The notes beneath the pieces are model-generated. The model did not search any database, was not told where the DNA came from, and worked only from the letters and a program-made list of their open reading frames with translations. From Alphaproteobacteria bacterium (GTDB taxonomy: Bacteria; Pseudomonadota; Alphaproteobacteria; Caulobacterales; Maricaulaceae): a stretch of 64,000 bases of DNA. Both the position numbers and the translations under genes were made by a program. Where the stretch lies: NCBI GenBank assembly GCA_024742735.1, contig JANSXV010000006.1:11213-75212 (forward strand). The letters run 5' to 3'. Below, piece after piece: positions 44,400 to 49,024 of the stretch (its first letter is position 1; the number at the start of each line of letters is the position of its first letter).

Positions 44400-45500
44400 A
44401 TGTTCTACCTGTTCCTCGCCCCACTCGCTGACCAGTTCCAGCTGTTCAACGTTTTCAGTTACCTGACCTTCCGCACCGGCGGCGCTTTGATGACCGCCTT
44501 CGTCATCGCGCTGGTGATCGGCAAGCCCTTCATCGCCTGGCTTCGGACCAAGGGCTCCCAGCCGATTCGCGACGACGGTCCGGAAAGCCACATCGTCGCC
44601 AAGGCCGGGACGCCGACCATGGGCGGGTTCATCATCCTGGCCGCGATCATCGGATCGACGCTGCTGTGGGGCGATCTGACCAATCAGTATCTCTGGGTGG
44701 TCATGTTCGTGACGGCGGGCTTCGGCCTGATCGGTTTCATCGACGACTGGCGCAAGGTCACCCAGAAATCGCACAAGGGCCTGTCCGCGCGCGGCAAGCT
44801 GGTGCTGCAATTCACCGTCTCGCTGGTCGCTGTGATCTGGATGGTCCAGCTTCTGTCCAATGCGCCCGGCGCGCCTGAGGGCTTCGCCACGTCGGTCGCC
44901 GTGCCCTTCTTCAAGGACGTGTTCGTACCGCTCAGCTACGCCTTCTTCCTGTTCGGCATGGTCGTGATCGTGGGCGCCTCCAATGCGGTGAATCTGACCG
45001 ACGGCCTGGACGGGCTCGCCATCGTTCCCGTCATGATCGCCGCCGGGGCGTTCGCCTTCATCGCCTATTTCGTGGGCAACGCGGTCTATTCCGACTACCT
45101 GTTCCTGAACTTCACGCCGGGCACGGGCGAGCTGGCGCTGATCTGCGGGGCGATCATCGGCGCCGGGCTCGGCTTTCTCTGGTACAACGCGCCGCCGGCC
45201 ATGGTGTTCATGGGCGACACCGGCTCACTGTCGCTGGGCGGAGCCATCGGAACCATCGCCGTGGCGGTCAAGCACGAGATCGTGCTGGTCATCATTGGCG
45301 GGCTGTTCGTTCTGGAGGCGGTGTCGGTCTTCGTACAGGTCGCCAGCTTCAAGCTGACCGGCAAGCGCGTGTTCAAGATGGCGCCCATCCACCACCACTT
45401 TGAAAAACTCGGCTGGGCCGAACCGACCATCGTGATCCGCTTCTGGATCATCGCGGTCGTGCTCGCCCTTATCGGACTGTCGACCCTGAAGCTGCGCTAG
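44400..45500 (+). CDS. mraY: Phospho-MurNAc-pentapeptide transferase
   Basis: [39 protein letters not shown]. Confidence 0.97.
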
Positions 45501-45513
45501 GAGGCCAGGCTCC

Positions 45514-46812
45514 ATGATCCCGCTGCGCGCCCATGCCGGCCGCCGCGTCAGTGTCCTCTCCCTCGGCGGAGCAGGTCTGACGGCGGCGCGCGCGCTGCAC
45601 GCGGGCGGGGCCGAAGTCACGGTCTGGGACAGCGGAGAAGCCCGGCGGTGCGAGGCTGAAGCTCTCGGGCTGACGGTCGAGGATCTGACGACGCGGGACT
45701 GGTCGGACCTCTCCGCCCTGGTGGTCGGAGACGCCGGCTTGCTGGAGGAAGACCCGGCCCCGCGTCTGATCGACATGGCGCGCGCTCTGGATGCGCCGCT
45801 GATCACAGCCGAACACCTGCTGTGCGAGAACTATGCGGCGTCCGGCGCCTGTTTCACCGCCGGGCTCGGCCGTCAGGCGCTGGCGGCGCTGCATTTCTCC
45901 GCGCACCTGCTGCGTGAGACAGGCCAGCCCGTCATCGGACCTGAACCGCCTCAGCTGTTTCGAGACCCAAATCCCGCGGCTGTTCTGATGGCGCAGTGCG
46001 AGCGTGCGCCGACCGCGACTCCGAAGGCGGCATGTCTTCTCGACGGCGCCGGCGTAGCGACCGATCTGCGCAACTTGTCTCAGGCGGTCACCGGACCGCT
46101 CGTGCTCAGCGCCGATGATCCAGCCGTGCGCCGCCTGTCGGTGTCGGGGATCAAGCGTGCGAGTCTGGTCTCCGGCCGGTCCGCGCTGGCTCGCGGCGTC
46201 TTTGTCGCGGCCGGGCGCCTTTTCGATGCGCTCGACGGGCGCGCGCAGCGCGTGGCGGACCTCGCCGATGCGCCGGGTTGCGCCCAGGGTCACCCTCTGG
46301 CGCTGGCGGCCGGCTATGCGCTGGCGCGCGGGTTGGGCCTGTCGTTTGACGATGCCCGCGACGGCGTTGCGAGCTATCGCGGATGTCCCGGTCATGGCGC
46401 GCCGCTGGGCCAGATCGGACCGCTCGTGCTCGCGGACTGGTCGAAGGCGTCCGACGCCCGCTCGCTCGTCGACGCGCTCAAGCGCGGCCAGCCCTCGGTC
46501 TGGCTGGCGGGCCCGTCGGTCGATCCGAAACTGCCCGCCCTGCTGGAGGCGAGCGGCGCCGCGCCGAGTGCGGTCATCCTGACCGGCGATCGCCGCCGCG
46601 CCCGGCGCAAGCTCGCCCGGCTCTGCCCGGTCCACGTGGAGCGGGACGTCACCGGCGCCATGGCCCTGGCGGTGCACGCCGCGCTGCGCGCCGGGCCGGG
46701 CGCCGCCATCATTTTCGCCCCGGGCGGGCCGTGCGAGCCCGGGCTCGGCGATGATCTGGCCCAGGCGATGAACAGCCTCATGGCCCGTGCAACACAGGGA
46801 GACGCCGCATGA
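45514..46812 (+). CDS. MurD-derived protein lacking catalytic motifs (pseudoenzyme)
   Basis: At the murD position; N-terminus aligns with MurD (GLTAARAL..GG.EV.VWD..DW); P-loop, ExSS, NxxxDHLDRH, HRxE, DSKATN and SPAxASFDQ are all altered; ORF intact. Confidence 0.8.
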   Translation: MIPLRAHAGRRVSVLSLGGAGLTAARALHAGGAEVTVWDSGEARRCEAEALGLTVEDLTTRDWSDLSALVVGDAGLLEEDPAPRLIDMARALDAPLITAEHLLCENYAASGACFTAGLGRQALAALHFSAHLLRETGQPVIGPEPPQLFRDPNPAAVLMAQCERAPTATPKAACLLDGAGVATDLRNLSQAVTGPLVLSADDPAVRRLSVSGIKRASLVSGRSALARGVFVAAGRLFDALDGRAQRVADLADAPGCAQGHPLALAAGYALARGLGLSFDDARDGVASYRGCPGHGAPLGQIGPLVLADWSKASDARSLVDALKRGQPSVWLAGPSVDPKLPALLEASGAAPSAVILTGDRRRARRKLARLCPVHVERDVTGAMALAVHAALRAGPGAAIIFAPGGPCEPGLGDDLAQAMNSLMARATQGDAA

Positions 46813-47936
46813 GCGCGCGCAGACGTGAGCCCAGCCTGTGGGCCGGACTGGATCAGCCGATCCTGGCCATCGTGATCTTCCTGATGGTGATCGGGATCGT
46901 CCTGTCCTTCGCAGCGAGCCCGGCGGTGTCGACGGCGGCCGACCCCTGGTACTTCCTGAAGCGCCAGCTCTTGTTCGCAGGTGTCGGTGTTGCGATCCTG
47001 TCGGTTGCAGCCGCGTTGTCGATCACGGGTGTGAGGCGCATGGCGGGCCTGGCCCTATTGTTCAGCCTCGTGCTTCTGGTGCTCACGCCCTTCATCGGCG
47101 TCGAATTGAACGGCGCATCGCGCTGGATCCATGTCGCCGGCTTTTCAATTCAGGCCAGTGAGATCCTCAAGCCGTCCTTCATCGTCTTCACCGCATGGCT
47201 GTTCGCCGAGGAAGACCGGGGCGCGCCTGTGCCGGGCAGGCTCGCCGCATTCATCCTGTACGGGCTTTGCGTCGCGCTCCTGATGATCCAGCCCGATTTC
47301 GGGCAGACGGTCCTGATCACGCTGGTGTTCGGCGCGCTCTTGTGGGCGTCGGGTCTCGCCTGGAAGCATACCGCCATGCTTGCCGGCGCGGCGGTCGCCG
47401 GAGCGGCCGGAGCCTACGCGGCGCTGCCGCACATCCGCGCTCGCATCGCCGACTTCCTGAGTCCGGCCTCCGACATCGCGGCGCGCACCCAGACCGACAT
47501 CGCCATGGACGCCATCGCCCGAGGCGGCGTCTGGGGGGCCGGGCCCGGGGAGGGTGAGATCAAACATGTCCTGCCCATGGCCAACACCGACTTCGTGTTC
47601 GCCGTAGCCGCTGAAGAGTTCGGGCTGATCGCCTCGCTCGCCATCATCGGGCTGTTCGCCCTGCTGTTCCTGCGCGCCTGGACGCTGGCGCTGCGCATGA
47701 CCGATCCCTTCGCCCAGCTGGCCACCGCCGGTCTCGCGCTCCTTTTCGGCCTGCAGGCGCTGGTGAACATCGCGGTCAATCTTGATATCGCTCCGCCCAC
47801 GGGCATGACGCTGCCCTTCATCTCCTACGGAGGCTCCTCCATGGCGGCGCTGTGCTTTTCCGCCGGTCTGATGTTGGCCCTGACCCGCAAGCGGCCGGGC
47901 GCCTACGCCCCGCGCGAGCGCCGGGCGGTCGCATGA
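46809..47936 (+). CDS. ftsW: Septal PG glycosyltransferase FtsW
   Basis: GASRWI, QASEILKP, QPDFG, NTDFVFAVAAEEFG, TGMTLPFISYGGSS. Confidence 0.96.
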   Translation: MSARRREPSLWAGLDQPILAIVIFLMVIGIVLSFAASPAVSTAADPWYFLKRQLLFAGVGVAILSVAAALSITGVRRMAGLALLFSLVLLVLTPFIGVELNGASRWIHVAGFSIQASEILKPSFIVFTAWLFAEEDRGAPVPGRLAAFILYGLCVALLMIQPDFGQTVLITLVFGALLWASGLAWKHTAMLAGAAVAGAAGAYAALPHIRARIADFLSPASDIAARTQTDIAMDAIARGGVWGAGPGEGEIKHVLPMANTDFVFAVAAEEFGLIASLAIIGLFALLFLRAWTLALRMTDPFAQLATAGLALLFGLQALVNIAVNLDIAPPTGMTLPFISYGGSSMAALCFSAGLMLALTRKRPGAYAPRERRAVA

Positions 47937-49024
47937 CGGGCAAGGCGCTGTTCGCCGCCGGCGGCACCGGAGGGCACATGTTCCCGGCCCGCGCCGCCGC
48001 CGATGCTCTGATCGCGCGCGGCTGGGAGGTGCGACTGGTCACCGATGCGCGCGGCGCCAAGCATGCTCGCGACTTTCCCGGCGGCGATCCCGTCGTGATC
48101 GAGGCCCAAAGCCCGTTCCAGAAGAACCCGGTCAGGCTGGTGGGCGCACTGGCCAGTCTGGCCAAAGGCTACCGCCAGACCTCGCGGCTCATGGCGGACT
48201 TTCAGCCCGATGTGGTCGCCGGCTTCGGCGGCTATCCGGCCTTTCCGGTGCTGGCGGCGGCGCGGTCAAGGAAAGTTCCCTTCGTCATCCACGAACAGAA
48301 TGCGGTGCTGGGCCGGGTGAACCGGTTGTTCTCCGGCTCGGCGGTGTGCGTCGCGTCCGGCTTTGAGCGCCTGGACCGGGCGAGCGTGAAGGTTGATCAC
48401 AAAGTCGTCGGCAATCCCGTACGCGCCGCCGTTCTGAAAGCGGCTGAAACCCCCTACGCCGCGCCGCCGCCGGAGGGCGAGTTCCGCCTGCTTGTGATCG
48501 GCGGCAGCCTGGGCGCACGGCTTCTGTCGGTGACAGTCCCGCGCGCCGTGGCGGTGTTGCCCGAGGCCCTGCGCCAACGTCTGAAAGTGGTCCAGCAGAC
48601 CCGGGAGGAGACCCTGGACGAAGCCCGGCAGCTCTATTCTGAAGCCGGGGTCGAGGCCGAGTTGGCGCCGTTCTTCCAGGACATGGGCAAGCTCTACGCG
48701 GACGCCCATCTGGTGATCAGCCGGGCCGGCGCCAGCTCGGTCAGCGAAATCGCCGCCATCGGCCGGCCGGCGATCTTCGTTCCGTTGGCCGTCGCCATGG
48801 ATGATCACCAGACTGCGAACGCTGAAAGCCTTGTCGAAGCTGGCGCCGCCGAAGCGATCAGTGAGGCCGAATTGACCGTCCAGCGCCTGCGCGAGAGCCT
48901 TGAAACGGCCATGACCGGCGGCGAAGCTCTCTCCAAGCAGGCCGAAGCGGCCCGCGCGCTCGGAAAGCCCTCGGCCCACGAGCACCTCGCCGATCTCATC
49001 GAAGCTGCCGCAGAAGCCTCCTGA
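47933..49024 (+). CDS. murG: Lipid II GlcNAc transferase
   Basis: AGGTGGHMFPA, GFGGY, HEQN, GGSLGA, RAGASS, HQTANA. Confidence 0.96.
   Translation: MTGKALFAAGGTGGHMFPARAAADALIARGWEVRLVTDARGAKHARDFPGGDPVVIEAQSPFQKNPVRLVGALASLAKGYRQTSRLMADFQPDVVAGFGGYPAFPVLAAARSRKVPFVIHEQNAVLGRVNRLFSGSAVCVASGFERLDRASVKVDHKVVGNPVRAAVLKAAETPYAAPPPEGEFRLLVIGGSLGARLLSVTVPRAVAVLPEALRQRLKVVQQTREETLDEARQLYSEAGVEAELAPFFQDMGKLYADAHLVISRAGASSVSEIAAIGRPAIFVPLAVAMDDHQTANAESLVEAGAAEAISEAELTVQRLRESLETAMTGGEALSKQAEAARALGKPSAHEHLADLIEAAAEAS

What the first reader, a model, noticed from the sequence alone, without database searches (positions are those of the whole stretch)
45514..46812. The dcw murD is a full-length pseudoenzyme
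Seen: the 432-aa ORF between mraY and ftsW is intact and its stop overlaps the ftsW start (ATGA). It follows MurD along its length, but the catalytic motifs of alphaproteobacterial MurD are replaced: SPG by GDAG, TGTNGKSTT by AGLGRQALA, ELSSYQ by AQCER, NISPDHLDRH deleted, HRME by HGAP, NDSKATN by DWSKASD, AGG..K by AGPSVD, SPACASFDQF by APGGPCEPG. Neighbouring murC/E/F are canonical. Established: D-Glu addition to the stem peptide is essential, and Xanthomonas-type bacteria do it with MurD2 (L-Glu ligase) plus MurL epimerase encoded outside dcw. Inference: the activity has moved elsewhere in the genome, perhaps to MurD2/MurL. The ancestral MurD is kept in frame, possibly as a non-catalytic scaffold for the Mur/MraY/MurG/FtsW complex or to preserve operon coupling.
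Basis: partly seen in the sequence, partly recalled or inferred. Interest (0 to 1): 0.8.

Follow-up and report, generated by a model that had tools for sequence, protein, structure and literature searches.

The report
Dead MurD kept in division operon
In the marine genus Oceanicaulis, the cell-wall gene murD has lost every catalytic motif because a second enzyme pair (MurD2 plus MurL) very probably took over its job, yet it is still kept as a full-length, well-folding protein under purifying selection.

Summary
The ORF at window 45514-46812 (432 aa) lies between mraY and ftsW, and its stop overlaps the ftsW start (ATGA). It scores 29.9 bits on the MurD model (cut-off 212), and every catalytic motif is lost. 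It is still predicted to fold as a three-domain Mur ligase (pLDDT 90.5).

The genome has no murI. On another contig, a MurD2-type ligase (K319→L, K348→R, A414→P) sits convergent to a MurL-like epimerase. All 25 Oceanicaulis genomes sampled show this MurL-present, MurI-absent pattern; the sister families f2-f4 keep canonical dcw MurD plus MurI.

The relic is not a decaying pseudogene:
- It is intact in all 18 complete mraY-ftsW intervals that carry it, at 31-46% identity.
- ML omega is 0.13; unsaturated pairs give 0.14-0.45. Shifted frames give omega above 1.
- Fifteen conserved positions are specific to the relic.

It is not essential either. One subclade deleted it cleanly, and in 29 of the 33 other MurL-positive genomes examined mraY abuts ftsW.

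Why it is retained is unresolved. It may have a non-catalytic protein role, or it may only carry ftsW's ribosome-binding site and translational coupling. I found no published description. Two partly degenerate dcw MurDs in other lineages suggest this recurs.

The parts
44400..45500 (+). mraY, canonical
   Evidence: TIGR00445 396 bits. It is 80-89% identical across the genus.
45499..45504 (+). Shine-Dalgarno AGGAGG for the relic ORF, overlapping the mraY stop codon
   Evidence: Sequence read. A GGAG-like SD lies upstream of most relic starts (clearly in about 15 of 18; G011 and G016 are weak).
45514..46812 (+). Catalytically dead MurD relic, 432 aa, with a three-domain Mur-ligase fold
   Evidence: ML omega 0.127.
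45514..45798 (+). N-terminal Rossmann-like domain (residues 1-95). It is the best-preserved part and holds the relic-specific conserved residues R5, R11, E56, R61 and D65.
   Evidence: It is 40-52% identical to the N-domain of canonical dcw MurD in sister families. Conservation profile; gained positions. Domain omega 0.134.
45859..45885 (+). Former P-loop position (residues 116-124, AGLGRQALA in place of TGTNGKSTT). Only G119 survives.
   Evidence: Alignments. K115 (E. coli numbering) is Ala in the 12 relics tabulated, and no relic in the 34-sequence set or the 12 cluster representatives has a P-loop.
45799..46398 (+). Central (former ATPase) domain remnant, residues 96-295. GGNIG, E157, the D182/H183 segment, K198 and the HN motif are lost or deleted.
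   Evidence: It is the least conserved region.
46399..46809 (+). C-terminal domain remnant, residues 296-432. R302, the NDSKATN motif, K348 and the SPACASxDQF motif are replaced.
   Evidence: Domain omega 0.148.
46797..46801 (+). Shine-Dalgarno GGGAG for ftsW, encoded inside the relic's conserved C-terminal codons (…Q-G-D-A-A)
   Evidence: A GGAG element sits at the same place in the five relatives printed, and the G-D/E codons that encode it are present in most of the 18 genomes.
46809..46812 (+). ATGA overlap: the ftsW start ATG and the relic stop TGA
   Evidence: The overlap is conserved in all 18 genomes with a complete relic.
46809..47936 (+). ftsW
   Evidence: PF01098 256 bits. TIGR02614 323 bits, just under the 337.5 cut-off.

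Best explanation
Shown, at about 0.9 confidence: the ORF is the vertically inherited dcw MurD of Oceanicaulis. On the stem of the genus a MurD2-type ligase plus the ATP-dependent epimerase MurL were gained and murI was lost. [quoted passage not shown] The old MurD then lost every ATP-, Mg-, substrate- and D-Glu-binding motif. It was not left to decay. It is still translated from its own Shine-Dalgarno, it is predicted to keep the three-domain Mur-ligase fold, and its amino-acid sequence is under purifying selection in every subclade. Its last codons encode ftsW's Shine-Dalgarno, and its stop overlaps the ftsW start.

Inferred: the reason for retention is most likely twofold. First, a non-essential, non-catalytic protein role, probably occupying the MurD position in the cytoplasmic Mur/MraY/MurG precursor machinery or binding a partner through the N-domain, where new invariant charged residues cluster. 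Second, a cis role in delivering ribosomes to ftsW. The benefit is conditional, because one subclade deleted the gene and evolved a 40-53-nt spacer with its own SD.
For: Loss of catalysis:
- TIGR01087 scores 29.9 bits against a cut-off of 212, and no Pfam Mur domains are found.
- 75 positions that are at least 90% conserved in canonical alphaproteobacterial MurD are lost.
- K115, D182/H183, K198, R302, K319 and K348 are replaced or deleted in all relic clades.

Descent from dcw MurD:
- The gene keeps its position between mraY and ftsW.
- Relics and canonical MurDs form one clade at 93% support, separate from the MurD2 clade at 99%.
- The N-domain is 40-52% identical to that of canonical MurD.

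Replacement pathway:
- A MurD-type ligase over the cut-off lies on contig C23, convergent to a MurL-like gene.
- MurL is present in 25 of 25 Oceanicaulis genomes and MurI in 0 of 25. Sister families f2-f4 have a canonical dcw MurD of 332-408 bits plus a MurI hit, and no MurL.
- All 16 MurL-associated ligases keep the catalytic residues but have K319→L/I and K348→R; 15 of 16 have A414→P. These match the X. oryzae MurD2 residues (PMC8788868).

Selection:
- The ORF is intact in all 18 complete relic-bearing intervals (425-453 aa), and the ATGA overlap is conserved.
- ML omega is 0.127, against murF 0.079, murG 0.077, ftsW 0.043 and mraY 0.018.
- Other subclades give 0.096 and 0.209.
- Six unsaturated pairs give 0.14-0.45, with upper 95% bounds below 0.6.
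- Shifted frames give omega 1.5 and 5.4.
- All 33 distinct gap runs in the 34-sequence alignment are in frame.

Fold:
- AF2 gives pLDDT 90.5 and pTM 0.90 for the window protein. It gives pLDDT 83.8 and pTM 0.84 for a clade-C relic at 32% identity.
- Foldseek top hits for both are MurD and MurC over the full length, TM 0.6-0.7.

New constraints: 15 positions are at least 90% conserved in relics but not in canonical MurD. They include R5, R11, E56, R61, D65 and R222.

Plausibility of a structural role: MurD binds MurG and MreB in Thermotoga maritima, as cited in PMC6420597.
Against: - The relic was deleted cleanly in a monophyletic Oceanicaulis subclade (G013, G014, G015, G023, G024; 100% support).
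- mraY abuts ftsW in G028, in 18 MurL-positive alphaproteobacterial genomes of other families, and in 11 MurL-positive genomes elsewhere in the phylum, including the Xanthomonadales-type ones. A dead MurD is therefore dispensable.
- Omega is 1.6-7 times that of the flanking genes by ML, and up to about 13 times in single pairs. The protein evolves 2-4 times faster than the working MurD2.
- Most invariant residues are ancestral Gly, Ala, Trp or Pro fold residues.
- Conservation of the C-terminal 'GDAA' is explained by the ftsW SD and start at the nucleotide level.
- G000's MurD2 has Asp where X. oryzae MurD2 has Glu197 (E. coli D182), so its strict L-Glu specificity is inferred, not certain.
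Confidence: 0.55

Rival explanations
1. Translated spacer only. The polypeptide has no function of its own. Selection keeps the frame open because ribosomes translating it deliver initiation at ftsW, through the SD inside its last codons and the ATGA overlap. It also keeps the product foldable and harmless, which alone pushes dN/dS below 1.
For: The SD for ftsW lies inside the ORF, and the ATGA overlap is conserved in all 18 complete relics. It is already present in canonical outgroups. The deletion clade had to acquire a separate AGGAA SD in a new spacer. The relic is dispensable in one subclade and absent from dcw in most other MurL-positive lineages. Omega is raised relative to the neighbours. 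Most invariants are structural residues.
Against: Coupling needs only a short ORF, yet length (425-453 aa) and all three domains are kept across the genus, with no shrinking in-frame deletions. Omega of 0.13-0.17 in unsaturated comparisons is close to that of murF and murG. Strictly conserved, relic-specific charged residues are hard to explain by foldability alone. A clean deletion is mutationally easy and happened repeatedly in other lineages, yet only once in this genus.
Confidence: 0.3
2. Cryptic activity. The protein still binds a ligand, for example UDP-MurNAc-L-Ala through the preserved N-domain. It would act as a sensor or regulator, or catalyse a different reaction with new residues.
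For: The N-domain is the best-conserved part and keeps the Asp (D39) that aligns with the uridine-ribose-binding Asp35 of E. coli MurD (the residue's role is from my own knowledge of MurD structures). New invariant charged residues cluster there. The fold is predicted with high confidence.
Against: The SPG motif and every central-domain and C-domain ligand-binding residue are gone, and the H183/N138-equivalent contacts to the substrate are deleted. No alternative nucleotide-binding motif was detected by Pfam or NCBIfam. The central domain differs between subclades.
Confidence: 0.1
3. Neutral or young pseudogene that happens to be open because the genome is 73% G+C in this region and stop codons are rare.
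For: Only 1.9% of single-base changes in the ORF create a stop. Long spurious ORFs are common in this window. G276 shows what a true decaying dcw murD looks like.
Against: All complete relics are open in the same frame, from 90% down to 31% identity, and every indel is in frame. Omega is 0.13-0.45 with upper bounds below 0.6, against above 1 in shifted frames. The relic is present in both deep branches of the genus, so it is old.
Confidence: 0.02

Closest known systems
[quoted passage not shown]
   Same: Same gene position (mraY-murD-ftsW, with the stop overlapping the ftsW start). Same three-domain fold by prediction. Same ancestry by phylogeny. The N-domain is still 40-52% identical to that of alphaproteobacterial MurD.
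   Different: Every catalytic and substrate-binding motif is lost. The HMM score is 29.9 against a cut-off of 212. It evolves 2-4 times faster than the working ligase. It cannot be filed as a MurD enzyme.
MurD2/MurL alternative D-Glu pathway of Xanthomonas oryzae (XOO_1320 / XOO_1319; Feng et al. 2017, reviewed in PMC8788868)
   Same: Oceanicaulis has a MurL homologue and a MurD-type ligase with Arg at the K348 position, Pro at the A414 position and a non-Lys residue at the K319 position. It has no murI.
   Different: The published list of genera (Xanthomonadales, Devosia, Pelagibacterium, Parvularcula, some actinomycetes) does not include Oceanicaulis. The two genes are convergent or unlinked here, rather than tandem as in 10 of 10 other Alphaproteobacteria examined. 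G000's ligase has Asp, not Glu, at the E197 position. In the Xanthomonadales-type genomes sampled here, dcw has no murD at all, whereas Oceanicaulis keeps a dead full-length copy.
Ordinary loss of dcw murD after MurD2/MurL takeover (the deletion state, and the decaying pseudogene in G276)
   Same: The same evolutionary trigger and the same locus.
   Different: In 29 of the 33 other MurL-positive genomes examined, mraY abuts ftsW. The four exceptions are G276, G574, G659 and G498. G276 has a truncated, motif-damaged fragment. The Oceanicaulis gene is instead full-length, coupled to ftsW and under purifying selection.
Bacteroidales dcw MurD reduced to a stand-alone C-terminal domain after MurL/MurD2 replacement
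   Same: A non-catalytic remnant of dcw MurD retained after the same pathway replacement.
   Different: Only the C-terminal domain is said to remain there, whereas all three domains are kept here. I did not test those notes, so they are a lead, not evidence.

Membership tests
MurD enzyme (TIGR01087 equivalog) | Whole-protein HMM score over the curated cut-off (211.95 bits) | tested here: not met
   29.9 bits, residues 196-405 only. No Pfam Mur_ligase_M or Mur_ligase_C.
MurD enzyme (TIGR01087 equivalog) | ATP-binding P-loop GxxGK(S/T)T with Lys115 (E. coli numbering) | tested here: not met
   AGLGRQALA. K115 is Ala in the 12 relics tabulated, and no relic in the larger sets has a P-loop.
MurD enzyme (TIGR01087 equivalog) | Catalytic and substrate residues D182/H183, carbamylated K198, R302, D317/K319/T321, K348, and the SPAxxSxDQF motif | tested here: not met
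   The 182/183 segment is deleted and the other residues are replaced. They are invariant in 13 of 13 canonical MurDs.
MurD enzyme (TIGR01087 equivalog) | Three-domain Mur-ligase fold | tested here: met
   AF2 pLDDT 90.5 and 83.8. Foldseek top hits are MurD and MurC, TM 0.6-0.7, over the full length.
MurD enzyme (TIGR01087 equivalog) | dcw position between mraY and ftsW, and descent from the canonical clade | tested here: met
   Relics and canonical MurDs form a clade at 93%.
MurD enzyme (TIGR01087 equivalog) | ATP-dependent D-Glu ligase activity | not testable with these tools
   Needs an enzyme assay. The sequence predicts no activity.
Pseudoenzyme (catalytically dead homologue retained by selection) | Homologous to an enzyme, catalytic residues lost, fold kept | tested here: met
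Pseudoenzyme (catalytically dead homologue retained by selection) | Purifying selection on the protein sequence after loss of catalysis | tested here: met
   Omega 0.127 by ML. Pairs give 0.14-0.45 with upper bounds below 0.6. Shifted frames give above 1.
Pseudoenzyme (catalytically dead homologue retained by selection) | A demonstrated non-catalytic function | not testable with these tools
   There are only indirect hints: relic-specific conserved residues. Dispensability in one subclade argues for an accessory role at most.
MurD2 (L-Glu ligase), for the partner gene G000:C23:74272-75585 | Intact Mur-ligase catalytic residues | tested here: met
   K115, H183, K198, R302, D317 and T321 are all present. 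TIGR01087 scores 275.5 bits.
MurD2 (L-Glu ligase), for the partner gene G000:C23:74272-75585 | Stereospecificity residues of X. oryzae MurD2: E197, R358, P433, F435 (E. coli D182, K348, A414, L416), and a non-Lys residue at K319 | tested here: inconclusive
   R, P and L are present at K348, A414 and K319. At D182 the residue is Asp in G000, and Glu in G001, G016 and 9 of 10 other MurL-linked ligases. At L416 it is Gly (PMC8788868).
MurD2 (L-Glu ligase), for the partner gene G000:C23:74272-75585 | Genomic association with murL and absence of murI and a D-amino-acid aminotransferase | tested here: met
   Convergent, 10 nt from the MurL-like gene. No TIGR00067 hit. No TIGR01121 hit over the cut-off. 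It clusters with MurL-linked ligases at 99%.
[quoted passage not shown] | HMM score over the curated cut-off (700 bits; the model was built on Xanthomonadales) | tested here: inconclusive
   283.5 bits, E 2e-84, model positions 13-444 of 447. It is a homologue, below the equivalog cut-off, as are all alphaproteobacterial hits.
[quoted passage not shown] | ATP-dependent L-to-D epimerase activity | not testable with these tools
   Needs an assay, or complementation of a D-Glu auxotroph.

The most novel reading that the evidence does not exclude
MurD has a conserved non-catalytic role in assembling or positioning the cytoplasmic peptidoglycan-precursor machinery (Mur ligases, MraY, MurG, FtsW). 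That role would be strong enough for a dead MurD to be kept under purifying selection through the whole radiation of a genus. It would also recur: full-length but motif-damaged dcw MurDs occur in at least two other alphaproteobacterial lineages (P0046, P0039), and a domain remnant is reported in Bacteroidales. The Oceanicaulis relic would then be a natural separation-of-function allele of an essential enzyme.
Probability: 0.3. Interest if true: 0.8.

Novelty: new variant of a known kind. Interest (0 to 1): 0.62.

Why it matters
Whether the Mur ligases work as free enzymes or as a structured complex at the membrane is still debated, and it bears on antibiotic design. In model bacteria MurD's catalytic and structural contributions cannot be separated, because the gene is essential. 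Oceanicaulis appears to have done that experiment naturally. Catalysis has moved to MurD2/MurL, yet the old protein is still made, is still predicted to fold, and is still selected. Sister species lack it altogether, so matched comparisons are possible.

The result also adds Oceanicaulis to the short published list of MurD2/MurL users. It shows the order of events in an essential-enzyme replacement: gain of the bypass, death of the old enzyme, then either retention or deletion.

It also flags an annotation error. At least JGI's pipeline labels several of these relics as UDP-N-acetylmuramoylalanine--D-glutamate ligase.

Tried and rejected
- Pfam on the relic gave only sub-threshold Rossmann-type noise.
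- A profile search of PDB sequences found only one weak MurD hit (3lk7, E 1.4e-5), so fold comparison was needed.
- ML omega for the central domain (0.082, tree length 15.5) and for clade B (0.039, tree length 17.6) is saturated. I do not rely on either and used unsaturated pairs with bootstrap instead.
- The TIGR01121 search returned only sub-cut-off class IV aminotransferase hits, as it does in most control genomes. It shows no clear Dat but cannot exclude an unusual D-Glu source.
- G498's contig after mraY is uninformative. G659 has a 490-nt mraY-ftsW spacer with no recognisable MurD remnant. G574 has a MurL-like gene together with a canonical dcw MurD, so it is not a relic.
- A wrong-frame reference caused one failed call.
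Transcription would not discriminate in any case, since the ORF lies inside the operon.
- The idea that the conserved C-terminal GDAA is a protein motif was rejected in favour of the ftsW SD and start.
Full report
**1. The observation**

The ORF at window 45514-46812 (+) is intact and encodes 432 aa. It starts 13 nt after the mraY stop, behind an AGGAGG Shine-Dalgarno at 45499-45504. Its TGA overlaps the ftsW ATG as ATGA at 46809-46812.

- Pfam finds no Mur-ligase domain.
- The NCBIfam MurD model scores 29.9 bits against a cut-off of 211.95, over residues 196-405 only.
- The flanking murE, murF, mraY, ftsW, murG and murC match their family models strongly.

The SPG motif, the P-loop, GGNIG, ELSSYQ, the PDH segment (deleted), HRME, NDSKATN, GGxxK and SPACASxDQF are all affected.

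**2. Where the activity went**

The window's genome (3.23 Mb, 34 contigs, 100% complete) holds one MurD-type gene over the model's cut-off. It lies on another contig at C23:74272-75585 and scores 275.5 bits. It is downstream of aroC. It is convergent to, and 10 nt from, a gene that matches the MurL epimerase model over nearly its full length (283.5 bits, E 2e-84). That score is below the 700-bit cut-off of a model built on Xanthomonadales. The genome has no glutamate racemase hit and no D-amino-acid aminotransferase over the cut-off.

Record titles of related loci name the genus as Oceanicaulis. The pattern across 41 related genomes is as follows:

| Group | MurL | MurI | MurD over cut-off |
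|---|---|---|---|
| Oceanicaulis (25 genomes) | 25 of 25 | 0 of 25 | one copy, 251-297 bits, outside dcw (24 of 25; none in the 1.7-Mb G007) |
| Sister families f2, f3, f4 | none | hit present (over the cut-off in f2 and f4) | canonical dcw copy, 332-408 bits |
| G028 (family f5) | adjacent to a MurD2-type gene | none | MurD2-type only; no murD in dcw |

G280, a sister genus in the same family, lacks MurL and has a canonical dcw MurD.

**3. The working ligase is of the MurD2 type**

In a tree with MurC as outgroup, the Oceanicaulis non-dcw ligases group at 99% with ligases that lie next to murL in ten other Alphaproteobacteria and in G028. The relics group at 93% with canonical dcw MurDs, on a long stem of 1.07 substitutions per site.

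| E. coli position | Canonical MurD (13) | MurL-linked ligases (16) |
|---|---|---|
| K115, H183, K198, R302, D317, T321 | all conserved | all conserved |
| K319 | K, 13 of 13 | L or I, 16 of 16 |
| K348 | K, 13 of 13 | R, 16 of 16 |
| A414 | A, 13 of 13 | P, 15 of 16 |
| D182 | D, 13 of 13 | E, 11 of 16 |

The review PMC8788868 names E197, R358, P433 and F435 of X. oryzae MurD2 (E. coli D182, K348, A414, L416) as the L-Glu recognition residues. It reports that K319T lets E. coli MurD accept L-Glu. G000's ligase has R, P and L at the K348, A414 and K319 positions but keeps Asp at position 182. L-Glu specificity is therefore very likely but remains inferred. The review's list of genera with the pathway does not include Oceanicaulis.

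**4. The relic is not a decaying pseudogene**

A protein search found 17 full-length homologues at 90% down to 37% identity, none with Mur domains. Of the 25 Oceanicaulis genomes (G000 plus 24 species representatives), 23 have a complete mraY-ftsW interval. Eighteen of these hold an intact ORF of 425-453 aa. Each starts 8-14 nt after the mraY stop, most behind a clear GGAG-type SD, and each ends in the ATGA overlap with ftsW. Every indel among the 34 sequences is in frame.

For eight close relatives with DNA in hand, the ML codon model gave these omega values:

| Gene | Omega |
|---|---|
| relic | 0.127 |
| murF | 0.079 |
| murG | 0.077 |
| ftsW | 0.043 |
| mraY | 0.018 |

The same alignment read in the two shifted frames gives omega 1.5 and 5.4, so the constraint is on this reading frame. 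Other subclades give 0.096 and 0.209. Six unsaturated pairs from four subclades (dS 0.39-0.73) give 0.14-0.45, with bootstrap upper bounds below 0.6. Omega by domain is 0.134 for the N-domain and 0.148 for the C-domain. The central-domain estimate is saturated.

AlphaFold2 predicts a confident three-domain protein for the window's relic (pLDDT 90.5, pTM 0.90). It also does so for a relic from the most distant subclade at 32% identity (pLDDT 83.8, pTM 0.84). Foldseek's best PDB matches for both are MurD and MurC over the full length, at TM 0.6-0.7.

**5. What is conserved**

Compared with 13 canonical MurDs:
- 75 positions that are at least 90% conserved in the enzymes are lost in the relics.
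- 31 ancestral positions are retained, mostly Gly, Ala, Trp or Pro fold residues.
- 15 positions are at least 90% conserved only in the relics: R5, R11, E56, R61, D65, L66, L208, G221, R222, P327, L343, A384, G394, G429 and A432.

Five of the charged residues cluster in the N-terminal domain, which is also the best-preserved part. The conserved C-terminal G-D-A-A is explained at the nucleotide level. GGAGAC-GCC-GC-ATGA holds ftsW's Shine-Dalgarno and start codon.

**6. The relic is not essential**

A tree of MraY plus FtsW places the five genomes without a relic (G013, G014, G015, G023, G024) in one clade with 100% support, nested inside the genus. Relics occur in both deep branches. The enzyme therefore died once, on the stem of the genus, and was deleted once later. 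That deletion left a 40-53-nt spacer with its own AGGAA SD.

Outside the genus, deletion is the rule:
- mraY abuts ftsW in 18 MurL-positive alphaproteobacterial genomes of other families.
- The same holds in 11 MurL-positive genomes elsewhere in the phylum, including the six whose MurL passes the Xanthomonadales cut-off.
- G276 has a truncated murD fragment with the P-loop Lys and K198 already lost, followed by an unrelated HTH/ImmA-type gene. That is how a plain pseudogene looks, though the contig is short.

The relic evolves 2-4 times faster than the working MurD2 in the same genome pairs.

**7. Extent of the family**

A profile search of 1.84 billion cluster representatives found 12 clusters (E ≤ 1e-57, 424-455 aa), none of which has a P-loop, HRxE or NDSKAT motif. 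After a score gap come ordinary MurDs. Three of the next hits look degenerate too:
- **P0046** lies between mraY and ftsW with an overlapping stop and start. It has lost the P-loop Lys, DH, K198, K319 and K348 but keeps HRME. Its MraY is 62% identical to the window's, so it is a separate lineage.
- **P0039** lies in dcw and keeps the P-loop but has lost DH, K198, K319 and K348.
- **P0045** is a degenerate MurD-like gene outside dcw in a Rhodospirillales MAG.

Dead or dying full-length dcw MurDs are therefore not unique to Oceanicaulis. I could not check whether those lineages carry murL.

**8. Mechanism**

Shown:
- descent from dcw MurD and loss of all catalytic motifs;
- presence of a MurD2-type ligase plus MurL, and absence of MurI;
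- purifying selection on the reading frame, and clean deletion in one subclade;
- conserved translation signals for both the relic and ftsW.

Predicted: the preserved three-domain fold (AlphaFold2).

Inferred: the protein does something. I consider an accessory, non-catalytic protein role the most likely reason for retention, together with the cis role in ftsW translation (0.55). The literature reports that MurD binds MurG and MreB in Thermotoga, and that MurG is proposed as a scaffold for the Mur ligases (PMC6420597). The main rival (0.3) is that only translation through the ORF matters, and that selection merely keeps the product foldable and harmless. A residual ligand-binding or new catalytic role (0.1) and neutral decay (0.02) are less likely.

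**9. Novelty**

Full-text searches for MurD with 'pseudoenzyme', and for MurL with murD, dcw and glutamate racemase, found no description of such a relic. Earlier notes of this scan report a C-terminal-domain remnant of dcw MurD in MurL/MurD2-using Bacteroidales. I did not test them. The pathway and the pseudoenzyme concept are both known. A full-length dead Mur ligase kept under selection inside the dcw operon is, as far as I could find, a new variant.

Noticed in passing
L119:8001-9446 (protein P0046): A 481-aa ORF between mraY and ftsW, with overlapping stop and start, in a JGI metagenome contig of a different alphaproteobacterial lineage (MraY 62% identical to the window's). It is a MurD with the P-loop Lys, DH, K198, K319 and K348 lost but HRME kept, so it looks like an earlier stage of the same degeneration.
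   Followed up: partly
L120:8001-9425 (protein P0039): A 474-aa dcw MurD that keeps its P-loop (GARGKST) but has lost DH (now SH), K198, K319 (NDSMASD) and K348. It is probably also inactive. A 305-nt gap separates it from ftsW.
   Followed up: partly
L118:8001-9350 (protein P0045, HJN26078.1): A degenerate MurD-like gene of 449 aa with no catalytic motifs, in a Rhodospirillales MAG. It is not in dcw and lies directly downstream of formate-dehydrogenase-like molybdopterin, FeS and cytochrome b genes. The same sequence was seen on at least 22 contigs.
   Followed up: no
L070:1103-3300 (G276): In a MurL-positive alphaproteobacterial MAG, the dcw murD is truncated at about 350 aa (GKST changed to GASAT, K198 to M) and is followed by an HTH_3/Peptidase_M78 (ImmA/IrrE-type) gene instead of ftsW. 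This is either an insertion or a chimeric 4.9-kb contig.
   Followed up: partly
G029, G033, G037 (family f6 of the same order): These genomes have a canonical dcw MurD but no hit to the glutamate racemase model TIGR00067 and no MurL hit. Their source of D-Glu is unexplained.
   Followed up: no
G020:C2:25644-26969 and G020:C2:223393-224718: One Oceanicaulis genome carries two MurL-like genes with nearly equal scores (272 bits each).
   Followed up: no
G574 (L111): A genome of another class has a MurL-like gene (267 bits) together with a canonical, motif-complete dcw MurD. It may be an early or mixed state of the pathway replacement.
   Followed up: no
window 47852-49024: The mechanical ORF for murG starts at GTG 47852 (390 aa). 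Gene calls in close relatives start at the ATG equivalent to 47933, which overlaps the ftsW stop, giving 363 aa. The shorter, coupled start is more likely.
   Followed up: partly
L008:9597-11162 (-) = G000:C23:75596-77161: The MurL-like ORF is 521 aa, but the model match begins at residue 88. The true start codon is probably downstream of the first one.
   Followed up: no
L104:1078-1568 (G659): A MurL-positive alphaproteobacterium of another family has a 490-nt mraY-ftsW spacer with no recognisable MurD remnant. It may be the last trace of a deleted murD.
   Followed up: no
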